Of a stretch of 64,000 nucleotides of DNA, positions 33,884-36,843 are shown in pieces (within the stretch, counting starts at the first letter, position 1; each line of letters opens with the position of its first letter). This DNA is from Caldisericia bacterium (GTDB lineage: Bacteria > Caldisericota > Caldisericia > JAAYUI01): positions 1,376,001-1,440,000 of the forward strand of contig OY771555.1 in assembly GCA_963674785.1 (NCBI GenBank), given 5' to 3'. A model generated the notes under the pieces. It searched no databases. It saw only the letters and a list, made by a program, of their open reading frames with translations, and was not told the origin of the DNA. The position numbers and the translations under genes are program-made.

Positions 33884-34258
33884 ATGGCTAAGAAAAAAAG
33901 AGCGAAGAAGCTAGTCTCTGAAGGTAGAATCTATATTCATTGCAGTTTTAATAATTGCATTGTTTCAGTCACAGACAAAGATGGCAACGTTGTTGCTTGG
34001 TCATCTGGTGGAGAAAGTGGTTTCAAAGGAACAAGAAAAGGAACCGGTTTCGCAGCCCAGGTTGTCGCGCAGAATGCATGCAAAAAAGCACTTGATATGG
34101 GTATGAAAGAAGCGAGATTGTTTGTCAAAGGCCCAGGATCAGGTAGAGAAACTGCAATCCGTTCGGTTGGTGCCTCAGGAATCACAATTACTTCAATCAA
34201 AGATATCACTCCAATCCCACATAATGGATGCCGACCACCAAAAATCAGGAGAGTATAG
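33884..34258 (+). CDS. rpsK: 30S ribosomal protein S11
   Basis: [25 protein letters not shown]. Confidence 0.98.
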
Positions 34259-34260
34259 AG

Positions 34261-34893
34261 ATGGGAAGATATACAGGACCAGTTTGCAGACTCTGCAGAA
34301 GAGAAAAAGACAAGCTCTACCTCAAAGGGGCAAGATGCTATGGAGCAAAATGTCCGCTTGAAGGCAATTACCATATTCCAGGAATGCATGGACCAAAAAA
34401 GAGACCTCGTGAAAAGATGTCAGATTATGCACTTCATCTTCGCGAAAAACAGAAGGTTAGAAGAATGTATGGAATGATGGAAAACCAGTTCAAGAATTAC
34501 TTTGCTGTTGCAAAAGCACAGAGAGAAATTCCAACCGGTGACAAACTTCTTGAGATTCTTGAGAGAAGACTTGATAATGTTATTTATAGAGCATCACTTG
34601 CTCCAAGCAGAACATCAGCAAGACAGATCATCAATCATTCACATATTAGAGTAAATGGTAAAAGACTTGATGTTCCATCCTACATTGTCAAACCAGGCGA
34701 CACCATTGAGGTAAAACAGAAAGCAAGAAAAATTAACCTCATCGACGAAGCAATCAAGTCACCTGTTACTCCACCATCATGGATGTCTTTTGATGACAAG
34801 AATTATAAAATTGAGATTCTTAGAATTCCAACCGTATCAGACATTGACTCAACCGCAAATATTCAGCTCGTTGTTGAATATTATTCAAGGTAA
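34261..34893 (+). CDS. rpsD: 30S ribosomal protein S4
   Basis: MGRYTGPVCRLCRRE, LREKQK, LERRLDN, LVVEYYSR. Confidence 0.98.
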   Translation: MGRYTGPVCRLCRREKDKLYLKGARCYGAKCPLEGNYHIPGMHGPKKRPREKMSDYALHLREKQKVRRMYGMMENQFKNYFAVAKAQREIPTGDKLLEILERRLDNVIYRASLAPSRTSARQIINHSHIRVNGKRLDVPSYIVKPGDTIEVKQKARKINLIDEAIKSPVTPPSWMSFDDKNYKIEILRIPTVSDIDSTANIQLVVEYYSR

Positions 34894-34911: not shown

Positions 34912-36480
34912 GTGTTTCCACTTGCAAGTCTTGAACTCAAGACCATCGAAGAGGATGCCTTTCTTGGTAGATATACTCTAGAACCTCTTCATCCGGGGTA
35001 TGGTGTATTGATTGGCAACAGTTTGAGGAGAGTACTTCTTTCCTCCATCAAAGGTGCTGCCCCAATAGCCCTGAGAATAGATGGGGTTCCCCATGAATTC
35101 TCCGTGATCGACGGTGTTGTAGAAGATGTCGTACAAATCGTTTTGAATTTGAAAAAGCTTGTTGTTGCCATGGATACAGATGAGATTAGAACTCTCACTC
35201 TTGATGCATCCGGTGAAAAGATGGTAACAGCTGCAGACATCATTCCAGATGTAGATACAACAATTGTTAATCCAGAACTACACATTGCCGAATTATCATC
35301 TCCAAACTCAACCCTCAGAATGGACATCATGGTTTCCAAAAAACGCGGATATGTCCCAATCGTTAAAAACAAAATGGACGGTTATCCTGTTGGAACCATC
35401 TGGCTTGATGCGATGTTTACACCAGTAAAGAATGTCAGATTCTCTGTTGAACAGACATTGATTGAGCAGTATCTTGATTTTGAGAGACTCAGCATTGATA
35501 TTCTCTGTAACGGTGCAATTGCACCAAGAGAAGCACTGCTTCAGGGTCTTCAGATCCTTTCTGAATACTACACTGTTATTGCACAACCAGAACTTCTTAA
35601 GAGAGAAGAGGAAGGTATTGAGGAGATTCTTGATGAGAAGCTCAACCAGCCTCTTGATGCTGCGGTTCCTGGGATTTCAGCAAAAACTCACCATCTTCTG
35701 GTTTATGAAGGTATTAAATCTCTCAGAGATCTACTTATGCGTGAGCAGGATGAGATTAAGGCAATCAGAGGTATCAGCACAAAAGCACTCTCTTCACTCA
35801 TGAAAGCTCTTACATCTGCTCCTGATTACGAACTTATTTCACAGTATACATTCCCGCTCTTCGGTGAGGACATGGATTCATTCAGTAATGCTGATGAGGT
35901 GGATGAGAGTCACGATACGGATGTAGTTGACGTAGATGAGGTAATCGCAGAGGTCGGTGATATTGAGGTTGATCAGTCAGAATCTAAAGAGATTTCACCA
36001 GATACACCAGCTGACGTTCCAGAAGAAGCTCTTAAGTATCAGCTTGAAGATTTATCTATCGCAAAAAGCACAGAAGGTTTCCTTGAAGATAATGGTGTAA
36101 CAACGCTTGTTCAGCTTGTTAGTAGAACAAGGGATGAGATTCATAACATGGAGGGTTTCAAAGAGAAAATCATTACTGAGATCGAAAAGAAACTTTCTAA
36201 ACTTGGTCTTTCTCTTTCTACTGATAAGAGCTTTGAAGCGATGGATCAGGCCGACCAGGAAAAAACAATCAGAGATATGTCAATCGATGTTTTCATTGCA
36301 AACGATGTTCCAATCCCAAGCACGTCACAGAAAGCACTTGAGCAGAAGGGTGTTGGTAATGTTGGTCAGATGATTGATTTGGGAAAAGCTGCCCTCAAAG
36401 GAAAACTCAAATTCTCTGGTAAGACAATAAAATCGATAGAAAAAAGACTCCAGGAGTGGGGTCTTGAACTCAAGGAGTAA
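34912..36480 (+). CDS. rpoA: RNA polymerase alpha subunit, extended (522 aa, three alpha-CTD-like domains)
   Basis: NTD EPLHPGYG..GNSLRRVLLSSI, HEFS.IDGVVED, RGYV, LDAMFTPV; located between rpsD and rplQ. Confidence 0.96.
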   Translation: MFPLASLELKTIEEDAFLGRYTLEPLHPGYGVLIGNSLRRVLLSSIKGAAPIALRIDGVPHEFSVIDGVVEDVVQIVLNLKKLVVAMDTDEIRTLTLDASGEKMVTAADIIPDVDTTIVNPELHIAELSSPNSTLRMDIMVSKKRGYVPIVKNKMDGYPVGTIWLDAMFTPVKNVRFSVEQTLIEQYLDFERLSIDILCNGAIAPREALLQGLQILSEYYTVIAQPELLKREEEGIEEILDEKLNQPLDAAVPGISAKTHHLLVYEGIKSLRDLLMREQDEIKAIRGISTKALSSLMKALTSAPDYELISQYTFPLFGEDMDSFSNADEVDESHDTDVVDVDEVIAEVGDIEVDQSESKEISPDTPADVPEEALKYQLEDLSIAKSTEGFLEDNGVTTLVQLVSRTRDEIHNMEGFKEKIITEIEKKLSKLGLSLSTDKSFEAMDQADQEKTIRDMSIDVFIANDVPIPSTSQKALEQKGVGNVGQMIDLGKAALKGKLKFSGKTIKSIEKRLQEWGLELKE

Positions 36481-36483
36481 ATT

Positions 36484-36843
36484 ATGAGACACCAGAAAAC
36501 ACACAGAAAACTCGGTGTATGGAGTTCATACAGAAAAATGATGCTCAGAAACCTTGCCACAAACCTTGTTATGTCTGGAAAAATTGAAACAACAGAGGCA
36601 AGATCAAAAGAGCTCAGAAGAAAAGTTGACAGAATTTTTGTGGTTGCAAAGAATGATGACCTTTCCTCAGTCAGAAAGGTTTATTCATTTTTTACAACAA
36701 GAGAAGCTGCAAAAAGATGCCTCGACGATGCAAAGAATAAATTTGACCAGAATAAAACTGGTGGGTTTACAAGACAGTTTAAACTTGGCCCACGCAGAGG
36801 AGATGGCGCTCCTTTAGTTTTGGTCAAACTTGACTATGCCTGA
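36484..36843 (+). CDS. rplQ: 50S ribosomal protein L17
   Basis: MRHQK..RKLG, IETTEAR, GGFTR, RRGDGA. Confidence 0.97.
   Translation: MRHQKTHRKLGVWSSYRKMMLRNLATNLVMSGKIETTEARSKELRRKVDRIFVVAKNDDLSSVRKVYSFFTTREAAKRCLDDAKNKFDQNKTGGFTRQFKLGPRRGDGAPLVLVKLDYA

What the first reader, a model, noticed from the sequence alone, without database searches (positions are those of the whole stretch)
35641..36480. RNA polymerase alpha subunit with three tandem, divergent CTDs and an acidic linker
Seen: rpoA in its normal rpsD-rplQ position is one 522-aa ORF. After the NTD come three units with the alpha-CTD pattern (L-x2-h-D...h-x7-L-x2-G-h-x2-h-x2-L...G-L-x-L): about aa 244-300, 374-435 and 453-520, with a roughly 55-aa Asp/Glu-rich spacer between units 1 and 2. 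Known: typical RpoA is about 310-340 aa with one CTD that binds UP elements through E. coli R265/N268/N294/G296/K298/S299 and also contacts activators and NusA. By my manual alignment no unit keeps this set (ISAKTHH/RGISTKA; IAKSTEG/EGFKEKI; IPSTSQK/LKFSGKT). Inference: each core enzyme would carry six CTDs, possibly a rewired protein-docking or DNA-contact surface, with the acidic linker as a DNA mimic. This is the best candidate for an undescribed transcription system here.
Basis: partly seen in the sequence, partly recalled or inferred. Interest (0 to 1): 0.85.

Follow-up and report, generated by a model that had tools for sequence, protein, structure and literature searches.

The report
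RNA polymerase alpha with three CTDs
The RNA polymerase alpha subunit of this uncultured Caldisericia bacterium carries three copies of the small C-terminal domain that normally occurs once, so its polymerase may contact promoters and regulators in a way that has not been studied.

Summary
rpoA (window 34912..36480, +, 522 aa) lies between rpsD and rplQ. It encodes a normal alpha N-terminal domain followed by three alpha-CTD-like helix-hairpin-helix domains (aa 244-303, 372-437, 458-522). A 54-aa, 39% Asp/Glu, predicted-disordered spacer separates domains 1 and 2.

All three domains match a canonical alpha-CTD profile (hhalign 95-98%). None keeps the E. coli UP-element residue set; only K298 survives in all three.

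It is not an assembly artefact. The genome is one 2.23-Mb contig with a single rpoA. The same architecture occurs in 11 of 11 genomes of its family (three genera) and in 20 further metagenome protein clusters. The domains evolve under purifying selection (dN/dS 0.00-0.14) while the spacer drifts.

Three sister families have RpoA frames of 374-464 aa. Every member I inspected carries two CTDs, and in two of these families the first CTD is fully canonical. The likely history is stepwise duplication and divergence.

The function is inferred: extra, flexibly tethered contact modules, with DNA-backbone contact slightly favoured over regulator docking. The DNA-mimic idea has little support.

Six literature searches found no description. 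I rate it a new variant of a known kind, of moderate to high interest.

The parts
34912..36480 (+). rpoA, 522 aa plus stop; the only rpoA in the genome
   Evidence: Searches give the ORF. NCBIfam RpoA equivalogs score over their cut-offs: NF003519 311.8 bits against 277, TIGR02027 286.6 against 227.8. PF01000 matches once in G000.
34912..35607 (+). alpha N-terminal domain (aa 1-232): dimerisation and insert domains
   Evidence: PF01193 covers aa 24-218 and PF01000 covers aa 55-170. Mean pairwise identity among 21 homologues is 83% over aa 36-232. dN/dS is 0.01-0.03.
35608..35640 (+). ordinary NTD-CTD interdomain linker (aa 233-243)
   Evidence: It lies between the Pfam NTD and the first CTD match. 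Mean pairwise identity is 52%.
35641..35820 (+). CTD unit 1, proximal (aa 244-303); K258/H261/K291 stand where E. coli has R265/N268/K298
   Evidence: PF03118 E 1.7e-4 and HHH_5 E 1.4e-4 on the piece alone. hhalign 95.1% to canonical CTDs. pLDDT 83-87. Residue mapping.
35821..35862 (+). conserved tail motif after unit 1 (aa 304-317, consensus DYxxISQYxFPF); S310, Q311, F314 and P315 are invariant in 21 sequences
   Evidence: A similar (R)FPL/LPL-hydrophobic motif follows the first CTD in the 5 genomes seen from genera g17 and g18 (families f5 and f6) of the 6 inspected. Function unknown.
35863..36024 (+). acidic disordered spacer (aa 318-371)
   Evidence: 54 aa, 39% D/E, net charge -20. Net negative in 21 of 21 homologues, length 54-92 aa. 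pLDDT below 50. Identity to other genera 7%. No Pfam match on the aa 313-364 piece. No DNA tandem repeat.
36025..36222 (+). CTD unit 2 (aa 372-437)
   Evidence: PF03118 25.1 bits, over the cut-off. Gapless alignment to mycobacterial alpha-CTD chains at E 2.2e-5. hhalign 97.8%. Modelled at pLDDT about 80-87.
36223..36282 (+). short connector between units 2 and 3 (aa 438-457), partly helical
   Evidence: Mean pairwise identity 34%. A helix is modelled at aa 446-454.
36283..36477 (+). CTD unit 3, distal (aa 458-522), ending GLELKE like the single CTD of related genomes
   Evidence: PF03118 on the piece alone gives only E 0.069. hhalign gives 96.1% to canonical CTDs and 97.2% to unit 2. The unit 3 profile finds alpha-CTD chains in the PDB at E 0.004-0.03. 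pLDDT 80-88.
34228..34893 (+). rpsD (S4), upstream neighbour
   Evidence: PF00163 and PF01479. The true start is probably the internal ATG near aa 12 of the listed frame.
36484..36843 (+). rplQ (L17), downstream neighbour; it starts 4 nt after the rpoA stop
   Evidence: PF01196; coordinates.

Best explanation
SHOWN. This is the organism's only RNA polymerase alpha subunit. It has a normal, highly conserved N-terminal assembly domain followed by three alpha-CTD-fold helix-hairpin-helix domains. The architecture is fixed in one Caldisericia family (three genera) and is kept by purifying selection. The spacer between units 1 and 2 is a fast-evolving, net-acidic, disordered tether.

INFERRED, history. 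An ancestral CTD was duplicated in tandem, giving a proximal and a distal CTD. Three sister families still have this two-CTD state, and two of them keep a fully canonical proximal CTD. In this family the distal CTD most likely duplicated again to give unit 2. The proximal CTD then drifted from R265/N268 to K/H.

INFERRED, mechanism. Alpha dimerises through its NTD as usual, so each core enzyme carries six independently mobile CTD modules. Unit 1 sits where the ordinary CTD sits and probably still touches promoter-proximal upstream DNA and sigma, with altered or weaker sequence preference. Units 2 and 3 hang on a 54-92-aa tether and act as extra reach modules. Their invariant polar residues lie at positions homologous to the E. 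coli DNA-contact face: unit 2 T387, K417, K419 and E423; unit 3 K474, K500, K504 and T505. But they lack the minor-groove arginine. I therefore favour sequence-unspecific contact with the DNA backbone further upstream, stabilising or wrapping promoter complexes. The same face could instead dock a regulator (see the first rival).
For: Gene and context.

Three CTD-type domains:
- Pfam PF03118 with 3 stretches, and each piece alone.
- hhalign 95-98% to canonical CTDs.
- PDB sequence hits for unit 2 at 2.2e-5 and for the unit 3 profile at 0.004.
- AF2 pLDDT 75-88 for each unit.
- Foldseek top hits are alpha-CTD chains, TM up to 0.91.

Not an artefact:
- The genome is one contig of 2,233,174 bases with one PF01000 match.
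- Full-length matches to units 2+3 occur in 11 of 11 family genomes, including this one.
- 20 further protein clusters of 519-559 aa come from independent assemblies.

Constraint:
- Mean pairwise identity is 0.54-0.57 for the units against 0.21 for the spacer.
- dN/dS within genera is 0.00-0.14 for the units against 0.11-0.20 for the spacer.

History:
- RpoA frames are 374-409 aa in 9 of 9 f2 genomes, 426-430 aa in 2 of 2 f5 genomes and 437-464 aa in 13 of 13 f6 genomes. They are 305-338 aa in f3, in f7 and in 22 of 23 f4 genomes.
- Two CTD domains were found in all 9 inspected members of f2, f5 and f6.
- In the domain tree, first domains group together (85/86), last domains group together (90/79), and unit 2 is their sister (82/87).
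- The proximal CTD of f5 and f6 reads R/N/N/G/K/S.
- A similar FPL-type motif follows the proximal CTD in this family and in the 5 inspected g17 and g18 genomes of the 6 from f5/f6.

Conserved face: maps the invariant residues to E. coli positions 265, 268, 294, 296, 298, 299 and 302.
Against: - No experiment or binding prediction supports any function.
- R265, the residue I recall as most critical for UP-element binding, is absent from units 2 and 3. It is only a lysine in unit 1.
- The units are not strongly basic: net charge is -3 to +8, and unit 3 is -1 or -2 in six sequences, five of them from one genus.
- Positions 265 and 268 of the distal CTD vary between families. That would be odd for a conserved DNA-reading surface.
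- The domain tree rests on 69 columns with moderate support. An AU test does not reject unit 2 grouping with unit 3 (p 0.43), nor with unit 1 (p 0.12).
- The NTD tree leaves the families as a polytomy, so a single origin of the two-CTD state is not shown.
- Which of units 2 and 3 Foldseek aligned is not reported, and its E-values are only about 1e-3.
- Unit 3 alone is below Pfam's cut-off.
Confidence: 0.45

Rival explanations
1. The extra CTDs are protein-docking modules. Units 2 and 3 (and perhaps 1) have given up DNA reading. They serve as additional, far-reaching landing pads for activators, sigma region 4-like domains, NusA-type factors or other partners, which multiplies the regulatory inputs per polymerase.
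For: - All three units lack the full DNA-contact set, and units 2 and 3 lack R265.
- Unit 2 keeps an invariant Asp (D380) at the position of E. coli D259. As I recall, that residue is part of the patch that touches sigma region 4.
- This family alone also encodes a free alpha-CTD plus sigma-region-4 protein: full length in 10 of 11 family genomes and in 0 of 82 other genomes of the phylum.
- Canonical alpha-CTDs are known protein-contact hubs (recalled).
Against: - No partner is identified.
- The co-occurrence with the free alpha-CTD/sigma-4 protein is a single clade, that is, one evolutionary event.
- Invariant lysines and a threonine sit on the face that contacts DNA in E. coli.
Confidence: 0.3
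2. The acidic spacer is a DNA mimic or autoinhibitory element. It occupies the DNA-binding faces of the CTDs (or of sigma or core) until displaced, as acidic tails do in some other DNA-binding proteins.
For: - The spacer is net negative in 21 of 21 homologues (-4 to -28), and in this genome it is 39% D/E.
- It is flanked by domains with conserved lysines.
Against: - The sequence is essentially unconserved: 7% identity between genera and 21% mean pairwise.
- Its length varies from 54 to 92 aa. Other genera have 12-23% K/R and up to 20% Pro in it.
- In the two-CTD sister families the equivalent spacer ranges from -13 to +5, and family f2 has almost no spacer at all.
- dN/dS is the highest of all regions.
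- This pattern fits an entropic tether whose charge merely keeps it extended and off the DNA.
Confidence: 0.07
3. The extra CTDs are decaying, functionless duplicates, a neutral accretion on an essential gene.
For: - They have lost the canonical residue set.
- Unit 3 scores below Pfam's cut-off.
Against: - All three units are as conserved as each other (0.54-0.57 identity) across three genera.
- dN/dS is 0.00-0.14, with zero non-synonymous change in the closest pair while dS is 0.05-0.21.
- 13 to 14 invariant residues per distal unit, including surface lysines.
- No frameshifts or stops in 11 of 11 genomes.
Confidence: 0.03
4. The long ORF is an assembly chimera or a gene-call fusion.
For: Many RpoA-like proteins over 550 aa in the protein database are single-member clusters on one contig, fused to unrelated domains such as S4, L17 and various enzymes.
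Against: - The genome is a single contig.
- Composition is even across the gene, GC 0.38-0.44.
- The same architecture occurs in 11 of 11 family genomes and in 20 other clusters from several sources.
- The extra part is itself alpha-CTD-like and under purifying selection.
- Read mapping could not be done because the tool was unreachable.
Confidence: 0.01

Closest known systems
Canonical bacterial RpoA (E. coli, 329 aa: NTD, flexible linker, one CTD)
   Same: - Same gene position between rpsD and rplQ.
- Same NTD families.
- Scores over the cut-offs of NCBI's RpoA equivalog models.
- Each extra unit has the alpha-CTD sequence profile, and the modelled units 2 and 3 match the alpha-CTD fold.
   Different: - Three CTDs instead of one.
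- None has the R265/N268/N294/G296/K298/S299 set.
- A 54-aa acidic disordered spacer and a conserved DYxxISQYxFPF motif lie between units 1 and 2.
Two-CTD RpoA of sister Caldisericia families
   Same: - Proximal CTD, then spacer, then a divergent distal CTD ending in GL.LKE or a similar sequence.
- Proximal and distal domains group with units 1 and 3 in the domain tree.
- A similar FPL-type motif follows the proximal CTD in the 5 inspected g17 and g18 genomes of the 6 from f5/f6.
   Different: - Only two CTDs.
- In families f5 and f6 the proximal CTD is fully canonical, R/N/N/G/K/S.
- Family f2 has almost no spacer.
Non-RpoA proteins with tandem arrays of alpha-CTD-like (PF03118) domains
   Same: They have head-to-tail repeats of the same domain type. 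Of the best 150 database matches to the unit 2+3 profile, 148 have no alpha NTD, and 149 of the 150 carry 2 to 13 CTD-like domains. The 10 checked with Pfam show 2 to 11 PF03118 stretches.
   Different: - They are not polymerase subunits: they have no alpha NTD.
- Some carry sigma-70 region 4. Precomputed Pfam lists of other long alpha-CTD repeat proteins include SNF2-type helicase families.
- Their function is unknown to me.
NusA C-terminal acidic repeats AR1/AR2 of E. coli (a tandem helix-hairpin-helix duplication in a transcription factor; recalled)
   Same: It is a lineage-specific tandem duplication of a small HhH domain, on a flexible tether, in the transcription machinery. It is used for protein contacts, and AR2 binds alpha-CTD.
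   Different: - A different protein and a different HhH subfamily. The match here is only a weak sub-threshold hit of unit 1 to TIGR01954 (E 0.085).
- This is a functional analogy, not membership.
Lineage-specific insertions in RNAP beta and beta' (recalled from the comparative RNAP literature)
   Same: They are clade-restricted extra domains on a universally conserved polymerase subunit.
   Different: Those are insertions in the large subunits. I know of no catalogued equivalent for alpha, and six literature searches found none.

Membership tests
Bacterial RNA polymerase alpha subunit (RpoA) | N-terminal dimerisation and insert domains (PF01193, PF01000), and a score over the cut-off of curated RpoA models | tested here: met
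   PF01000 8.9e-27 and PF01193 1.1e-13. NF003519 311.8 bits against a 277 cut-off, TIGR02027 286.6 against 227.8.
Bacterial RNA polymerase alpha subunit (RpoA) | Conserved position in the S13-S11-S4-RpoA-L17 cluster, and the only copy in the genome | tested here: met
   One search identifies the neighbours. One search finds one PF01000 match in G000.
Alpha-CTD domain (PF03118), unit 1 (aa 244-303) | Sequence-profile match to alpha-CTD, and a helical HhH fold | tested here: met
   Alone it scores 21.7 bits, just under the 23.8 cut-off. hhalign gives 95.1%, E 3e-8. RpoA equivalog models align through aa 302. It is modelled with five helices at pLDDT 83-87.
Alpha-CTD domain (PF03118), unit 2 (aa 372-437) | Sequence-profile match to alpha-CTD, and a helical HhH fold | tested here: met
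   25.1 bits, over the cut-off. PDB alpha-CTD chains at 2.2e-5, aligned without gaps. hhalign 97.8%. Foldseek TM up to 0.91 to alpha-CTD chains for the unit 2+3 model.
Alpha-CTD domain (PF03118), unit 3 (aa 458-522) | Sequence-profile match to alpha-CTD, and a helical HhH fold | tested here: inconclusive
   It is below Pfam's cut-off (13.3 bits, E 0.069). But hhalign gives 96.1% to canonical CTDs and 97.2% to unit 2, and its profile finds 18 alpha chains among 29 PDB matches, the best at E 0.0043. It is modelled as a helical bundle at pLDDT 80-88. No fold search was run on unit 3 alone. I accept it as a divergent member.
UP-element-binding alpha-CTD ('265 determinant', E. coli; residue list recalled) | R265, N268, N294, G296, K298 and S299 conserved | tested here: not met
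   Unit 1 reads K/H/G/S/K/A, unit 2 S/G/G/K/K/I and unit 3 T/K/K/S/K/T. Only K298 is kept in all three. Sister-family proximal CTDs read R/N/N/G/K/S.
UP-element-binding alpha-CTD | Binds A/T-rich DNA upstream of the -35 element | not testable with these tools
   This needs biochemistry.
Acidic DNA-mimic or autoinhibitory tail | A conserved acidic segment that contacts a DNA-binding surface | tested here: inconclusive
   Net negative in 21 of 21 homologues, but the sequence and length are not conserved, and it is not acidic in all sister-family genomes. Contact was not testable.

The most novel reading that the evidence does not exclude
This Caldisericia family may have rebuilt upstream-promoter recognition. 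Its polymerase carries six tethered HhH modules, none of which reads UP elements in the E. coli manner. A family-specific free protein joins a more canonical alpha-CTD (R/T/H/G/K/S at the six positions) to a sigma-region-4-like helix-turn-helix. That protein may work with, or compete against, the polymerase's own CTD array as a trans-acting promoter adaptor. This would be a mode of bacterial promoter recognition or activation without a described precedent.
Probability: 0.1. Interest if true: 0.8.

Novelty: new variant of a known kind. Interest (0 to 1): 0.55.

Why it matters
The alpha-CTD is the textbook contact point for UP elements and for class I activators. Models of bacterial transcription activation assume one CTD per alpha, so two per enzyme.

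A lineage in which the essential alpha subunit carries three CTDs would show that this module can be multiplied and re-specialised. The case is stronger because sister lineages carry two CTDs and show the intermediate steps.

It gives a natural series for study: one CTD; two CTDs with the canonical set kept; three CTDs with the canonical set lost. That series could be used to ask what extra CTDs buy a polymerase, for example longer upstream reach, DNA wrapping or more regulatory inputs.

It also flags a large and uncharacterised pool of non-polymerase proteins built from alpha-CTD-like repeats.

Tried and rejected
- Complex prediction of units 2+3 (alignment A3) against the family-specific 255-aa alpha-CTD/sigma-4 protein (alignment A4). 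The verdict was no answer, score 0.00 in two runs, and the controls were not run. It counts neither for nor against binding.
- Fold search with the full-length model. It returns RNAP alpha chains, but TM is only 0.12-0.14 because the NTD was poorly modelled from a shallow 21-sequence alignment. It says nothing about the extra units.
- Read support and expression. The look-up of sequencing runs was unreachable six times, so read laying was never called.
- NTD tree, to ask whether the multi-CTD families form one clade. The families form an unresolved polytomy.
- AU tests on the origin of unit 2. Neither a unit 2+3 clade (p 0.43) nor a unit 1+2 clade (p 0.12) is rejected.
- Search for extended RpoA elsewhere.
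  - One search lists 120 proteins over 550 aa. Four of them are clusters of this family, already known to carry three CTDs. One search examined the other 116: 93 have an alpha NTD, and only P0289 (an NTD-CTD-NTD-CTD fusion) has two or more CTDs.
  - Most of these long proteins are single-member clusters fused to unrelated domains.
  - RpoAs of 340-550 aa in other phyla were not surveyed, so rarity outside this phylum is not established.
- DNA tandem repeats in 35600-36500: none.
- The promoter and terminator scan around the gene gave nothing beyond chance for promoters: 7 found against 10.7 expected.
- Two family-f2 loci (L030, L031) were dropped from the domain counts because my script's motif filter did not find the RpoA frame there.
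- L022 was fetched and not used.
- Literature. Six searches were read only as listings and abstract starts. No paper was opened. Supplements are closed and none was relevant.
Full report
**What is there**

The window holds a single 522-aa ORF at 34912..36480 on the + strand. It sits in the usual S13-S11-S4-RpoA-L17 cluster and is followed by two ABC ATPases.

Pfam finds the alpha dimerisation domain (PF01193), the insert domain (PF01000) and three separate stretches of the alpha C-terminal domain family PF03118. NCBI's RpoA equivalog models score over their cut-offs and align to aa 8-302.

The genome that holds the window is a single contig of 2,233,174 bases and has only this one rpoA. Names attached to near relatives in the protein database read 'Caldisericia bacterium'.

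**Are the three units real alpha-CTDs?**

Scanned alone against PF03118:
- Unit 1: E 1.7e-4, 21.7 bits, just under the 23.8-bit cut-off.
- Unit 2: E 1.5e-5, 25.1 bits, over the cut-off.
- Unit 3: E 0.069, 13.3 bits.
- The spacer piece matches nothing.

I built profiles of each unit from 20-21 homologues and compared them with a profile of 99 ordinary RpoA C-termini. The results were 95.1% (3e-8), 97.8% (7e-13) and 96.1% (3.4e-9). Unit 2 against unit 3 gives 97.2%, unit 1 against unit 2 gives 94.1%, and unit 1 against unit 3 only 43%.

Unit 2 aligns without gaps to mycobacterial alpha-CTD chains in the PDB at 2.2e-5.

A profile of unit 3 finds 18 alpha chains among its 29 PDB matches, the best at E 0.0043. 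The three top rows are concatenated RecA constructs in which no single stretch passes, so I read them as an artefact of summed weak matches.

The AF2 model of the whole protein has a poor NTD because the alignment was shallow. It still gives three helical bundles at pLDDT 75-87 and a spacer (aa 322-368) below 50. A separate model of units 2+3 has mean pLDDT 79.4 and pTM 0.52, so there is no confident packing between the two units.

The best PDB fold matches of the unit 2+3 model are almost all RNAP alpha. TM is 0.70-0.91 against isolated alpha-CTD chains, and rmsd is 0.9-1.2 A for the closest ones. The E-values are only about 1e-3, as expected for a 60-residue domain, and the output does not say which unit was aligned.

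I conclude that units 1 and 2 are alpha-CTDs and unit 3 is a divergent one.

**The spacer and the residue set**

Residues 318-371 are 54 aa, 39% D/E and 2% K/R, with net charge -20.

I took E. coli RpoA from the K-12 record and aligned it with all the domains. At E. coli positions 265/268/294/296/298/299 the residues are:

| Domain | 265 | 268 | 294 | 296 | 298 | 299 |
|---|---|---|---|---|---|---|
| E. coli | R | N | N | G | K | S |
| Unit 1 | K | H | G | S | K | A |
| Unit 2 | S | G | G | K | K | I |
| Unit 3 | T | K | K | S | K | T |

The list of DNA-contact positions is recalled from the E. coli literature and was not taken from a call. Only K298 is retained throughout, as the invariant K291, K419 and K504.

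**Not an artefact, and under selection**

A search with units 2+3 over 93 genomes of the phylum gave full-length matches (E 1e-28 or better, no stops) in 11 of 11 genomes of the window's own family (three genera, this genome included). The other 82 genomes gave only weak single-domain matches or none.

Twenty further protein clusters of 519-559 aa from several sources share the whole architecture.

Mean pairwise identity among 21 sequences:

| Region | Identity |
|---|---|
| NTD | 0.83 |
| Unit 1 | 0.57 |
| Unit 2 | 0.54 |
| Unit 3 | 0.57 |
| Spacer | 0.21 (0.07 between this protein and other genera) |

Nei-Gojobori dN/dS in the unsaturated within-genus pairs is 0.00-0.14 for the units and 0.11-0.20 for the spacer. 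The closest pair has no non-synonymous change in any unit.

A conserved motif, DYxxISQYxFPF (aa 304-317), follows unit 1. Its residues S310, Q311, F314 and P315 are invariant.

**The wider picture in the phylum**

Stop-to-stop RpoA frames in 92 of 93 genomes (G012, 75% complete, had no match):

| Family | Frame length (aa) | Genomes |
|---|---|---|
| f1 (own) | 528-554 | 11 of 11 |
| f2 | 374-409 | 9 of 9 |
| f5 | 426-430 | 2 of 2 |
| f6 | 437-464 | 13 of 13 |
| f3 | 305-316 | 25 of 25 with a match |
| f4 | 313-338 | 22 of 23 (one frame of 429) |
| f7 | 314-336 | 9 of 9 |

I inspected 28 RpoA sequences with a CTD profile:
- Three domains in 11 of 11 f1 genomes.
- Two domains in 3 of 3 f2, 2 of 2 f5 and 4 of 4 f6 genomes.
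- One domain in 1 of 1 f3, 2 of 2 f4 and 5 of 5 f7 genomes.

The f1 units were part of the profile, so their scores follow by construction. The second domains of f2, f5 and f6 were not part of it (E 1.3e-13 to 5.9e-4). For the other members of f2 and f6, two CTDs are inferred from frame length only.

In f5 and f6 the first CTD reads R/N/N/G/K/S, fully canonical, and the second CTD is divergent.

A maximum-likelihood tree of the domains (64 rows, 69 columns) gives these groupings:
- The first domains of f1, f2, f5 and f6 group together (85/86).
- The last domains group together (90/79).
- Unit 2 of f1 is sister to the last domains (82/87).

AU tests do not reject unit 2 with unit 3 (p 0.43), nor unit 2 with unit 1 (p 0.12). 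The NTD tree does not resolve the families.

A similar FPL-type motif follows the first CTD in f1 and in the 5 inspected g17 and g18 genomes of the 6 from f5/f6.

My reading is as follows. One tandem duplication produced a proximal and a distal CTD. A further duplication in f1, most likely of the distal one, produced unit 2. The proximal CTD then lost R265 and N268 in f1. This is suggestive and not proven.

**Mechanism (inferred)**

The NTD is intact, so alpha should dimerise and assemble the core as usual. That gives six CTD modules per enzyme.

The invariant or near-invariant polar residues of each unit map to the E. coli DNA-contact face:
- Unit 1: K258=R265, H261=N268, K291=K298.
- Unit 2: T387=S266, K417=G296, K419=K298, E423=E302, and also D380=D259.
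- Unit 3: K474=N268, K500=N294, K504=K298, T505=S299.

The conserved face is therefore the same, but arginine and asparagine are replaced by lysine and others. I favour extra, sequence-unspecific DNA-backbone contacts at long reach, made possible by the 54-92-aa tether (confidence 0.45). Regulator docking on the same face is the main rival (0.3).

The DNA-mimic idea for the spacer fits poorly. The spacer is unconserved in sequence and length, is mixed-charge in other genera, and is net +5 in one f6 genome.

**Other alpha-CTD repeats**

The unit 2+3 profile was searched against 1.84 billion representative proteins. It found 735 proteins at E 1e-3 or better. Among the best 150:
- Only 2 have an alpha NTD. 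One is the representative of this family. The other is P0151, an RpoA with a canonical CTD inserted inside its NTD plus a terminal one.
- The other 148 are non-polymerase proteins.
- Across all 150, 149 carry 2 to 13 CTD-like repeats and one carries a single domain.

Ten were checked with Pfam. All show PF03118, one of them together with sigma-70 region 4.

One search lists 120 RpoA-like proteins over 550 aa. Four are clusters of this family, already known to carry three CTDs. Of the 116 others, 93 have an NTD and only one has two or more CTDs. RpoAs of 340-550 aa in other phyla were not surveyed.

**A possibly linked gene outside the window**

The best PF03118 match in the genome is not in RpoA. 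It lies in a 255-aa protein at G000:C1:1264975-1265742, with alpha-CTD at 49 bits and sigma-70 region 4 at 37 bits. Its CTD reads R/T/H/G/K/S at the six positions.

Full-length copies occur in 10 of 11 f1 genomes. The exception is a genome that is 69% complete. None occurs in the 82 other genomes of the phylum. This is one clade and so one event, and a complex prediction gave no verdict. I record it as a lead.

**Literature and novelty**

Six full-text searches were seen only as listings and abstract starts. None returned a paper on a multi-CTD alpha subunit. The proteins are in public databases under the routine name 'DNA-directed RNA polymerase subunit alpha'.

I class the finding as a new variant of a known kind. 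It is a real, conserved and unusual architecture of a textbook protein, with its function still open.

Noticed in passing
Outside the window: G000:C1:1264975-1265742 (+); L001 1468-2235: A 255-aa protein joins an N-terminal alpha-CTD (PF03118, 49 bits, the best match in the genome) to a sigma-70 region 4 helix-turn-helix and a conserved C-terminal part. Full-length copies occur in 10 of 11 genomes of the window's family and in 0 of 82 other genomes of the phylum. Its CTD is more canonical (R/T/H/G/K/S) than any CTD of RpoA..
   Followed up: partly
Proteins P0122-P0270: There is a large pool of non-polymerase proteins built from alpha-CTD-like repeats. Among the best 150 matches, 148 lack an alpha NTD, and 149 of the 150 carry 2 to 13 repeats. 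P0129 also carries sigma-70 region 4. Precomputed Pfam lists of other such repeat proteins include SNF2-type helicase families. Function unknown..
   Followed up: partly
Protein P0151 (409 aa): An RpoA from another lineage has a canonical alpha-CTD inserted inside its N-terminal domain (aa 110-176) as well as the usual terminal CTD..
   Followed up: partly
Protein P0022 (539 aa): An RpoA-like protein has two complete N-terminal domains in tandem and a single CTD. It could be a single-chain alpha pseudo-dimer. It is a single cluster from one source..
   Followed up: partly
Protein P0289 (664 aa): Two complete alpha subunits (NTD-CTD-NTD-CTD) lie in one predicted protein. A real fusion and a gene-call artefact were not distinguished..
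   Followed up: no
window 35821-35862; L024, L026, L027, L032: A short conserved hydrophobic motif follows the proximal CTD: DYxxISQYxFPF in this family, and RFPL or LPL plus hydrophobic residues in the 5 inspected genomes of genera g17 and g18 (families f5 and f6). The other inspected f6 genome (L023) does not show it clearly. It looks like a docking or capping element. Its function is unknown..
   Followed up: partly
L028 (G048, family f4): The RpoA open frame is 429 aa, where the other 22 genomes of that family have 313-338 aa. The extra length lies upstream of the NTD and may simply be stop-free sequence before the true start..
   Followed up: no
window 34228-34258: The longest rpsD frame overlaps the end of rpsK by 31 nt. 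The Pfam S4 match starts at aa 14, so the real start is probably the internal ATG (MGRYTGP...)..
   Followed up: no
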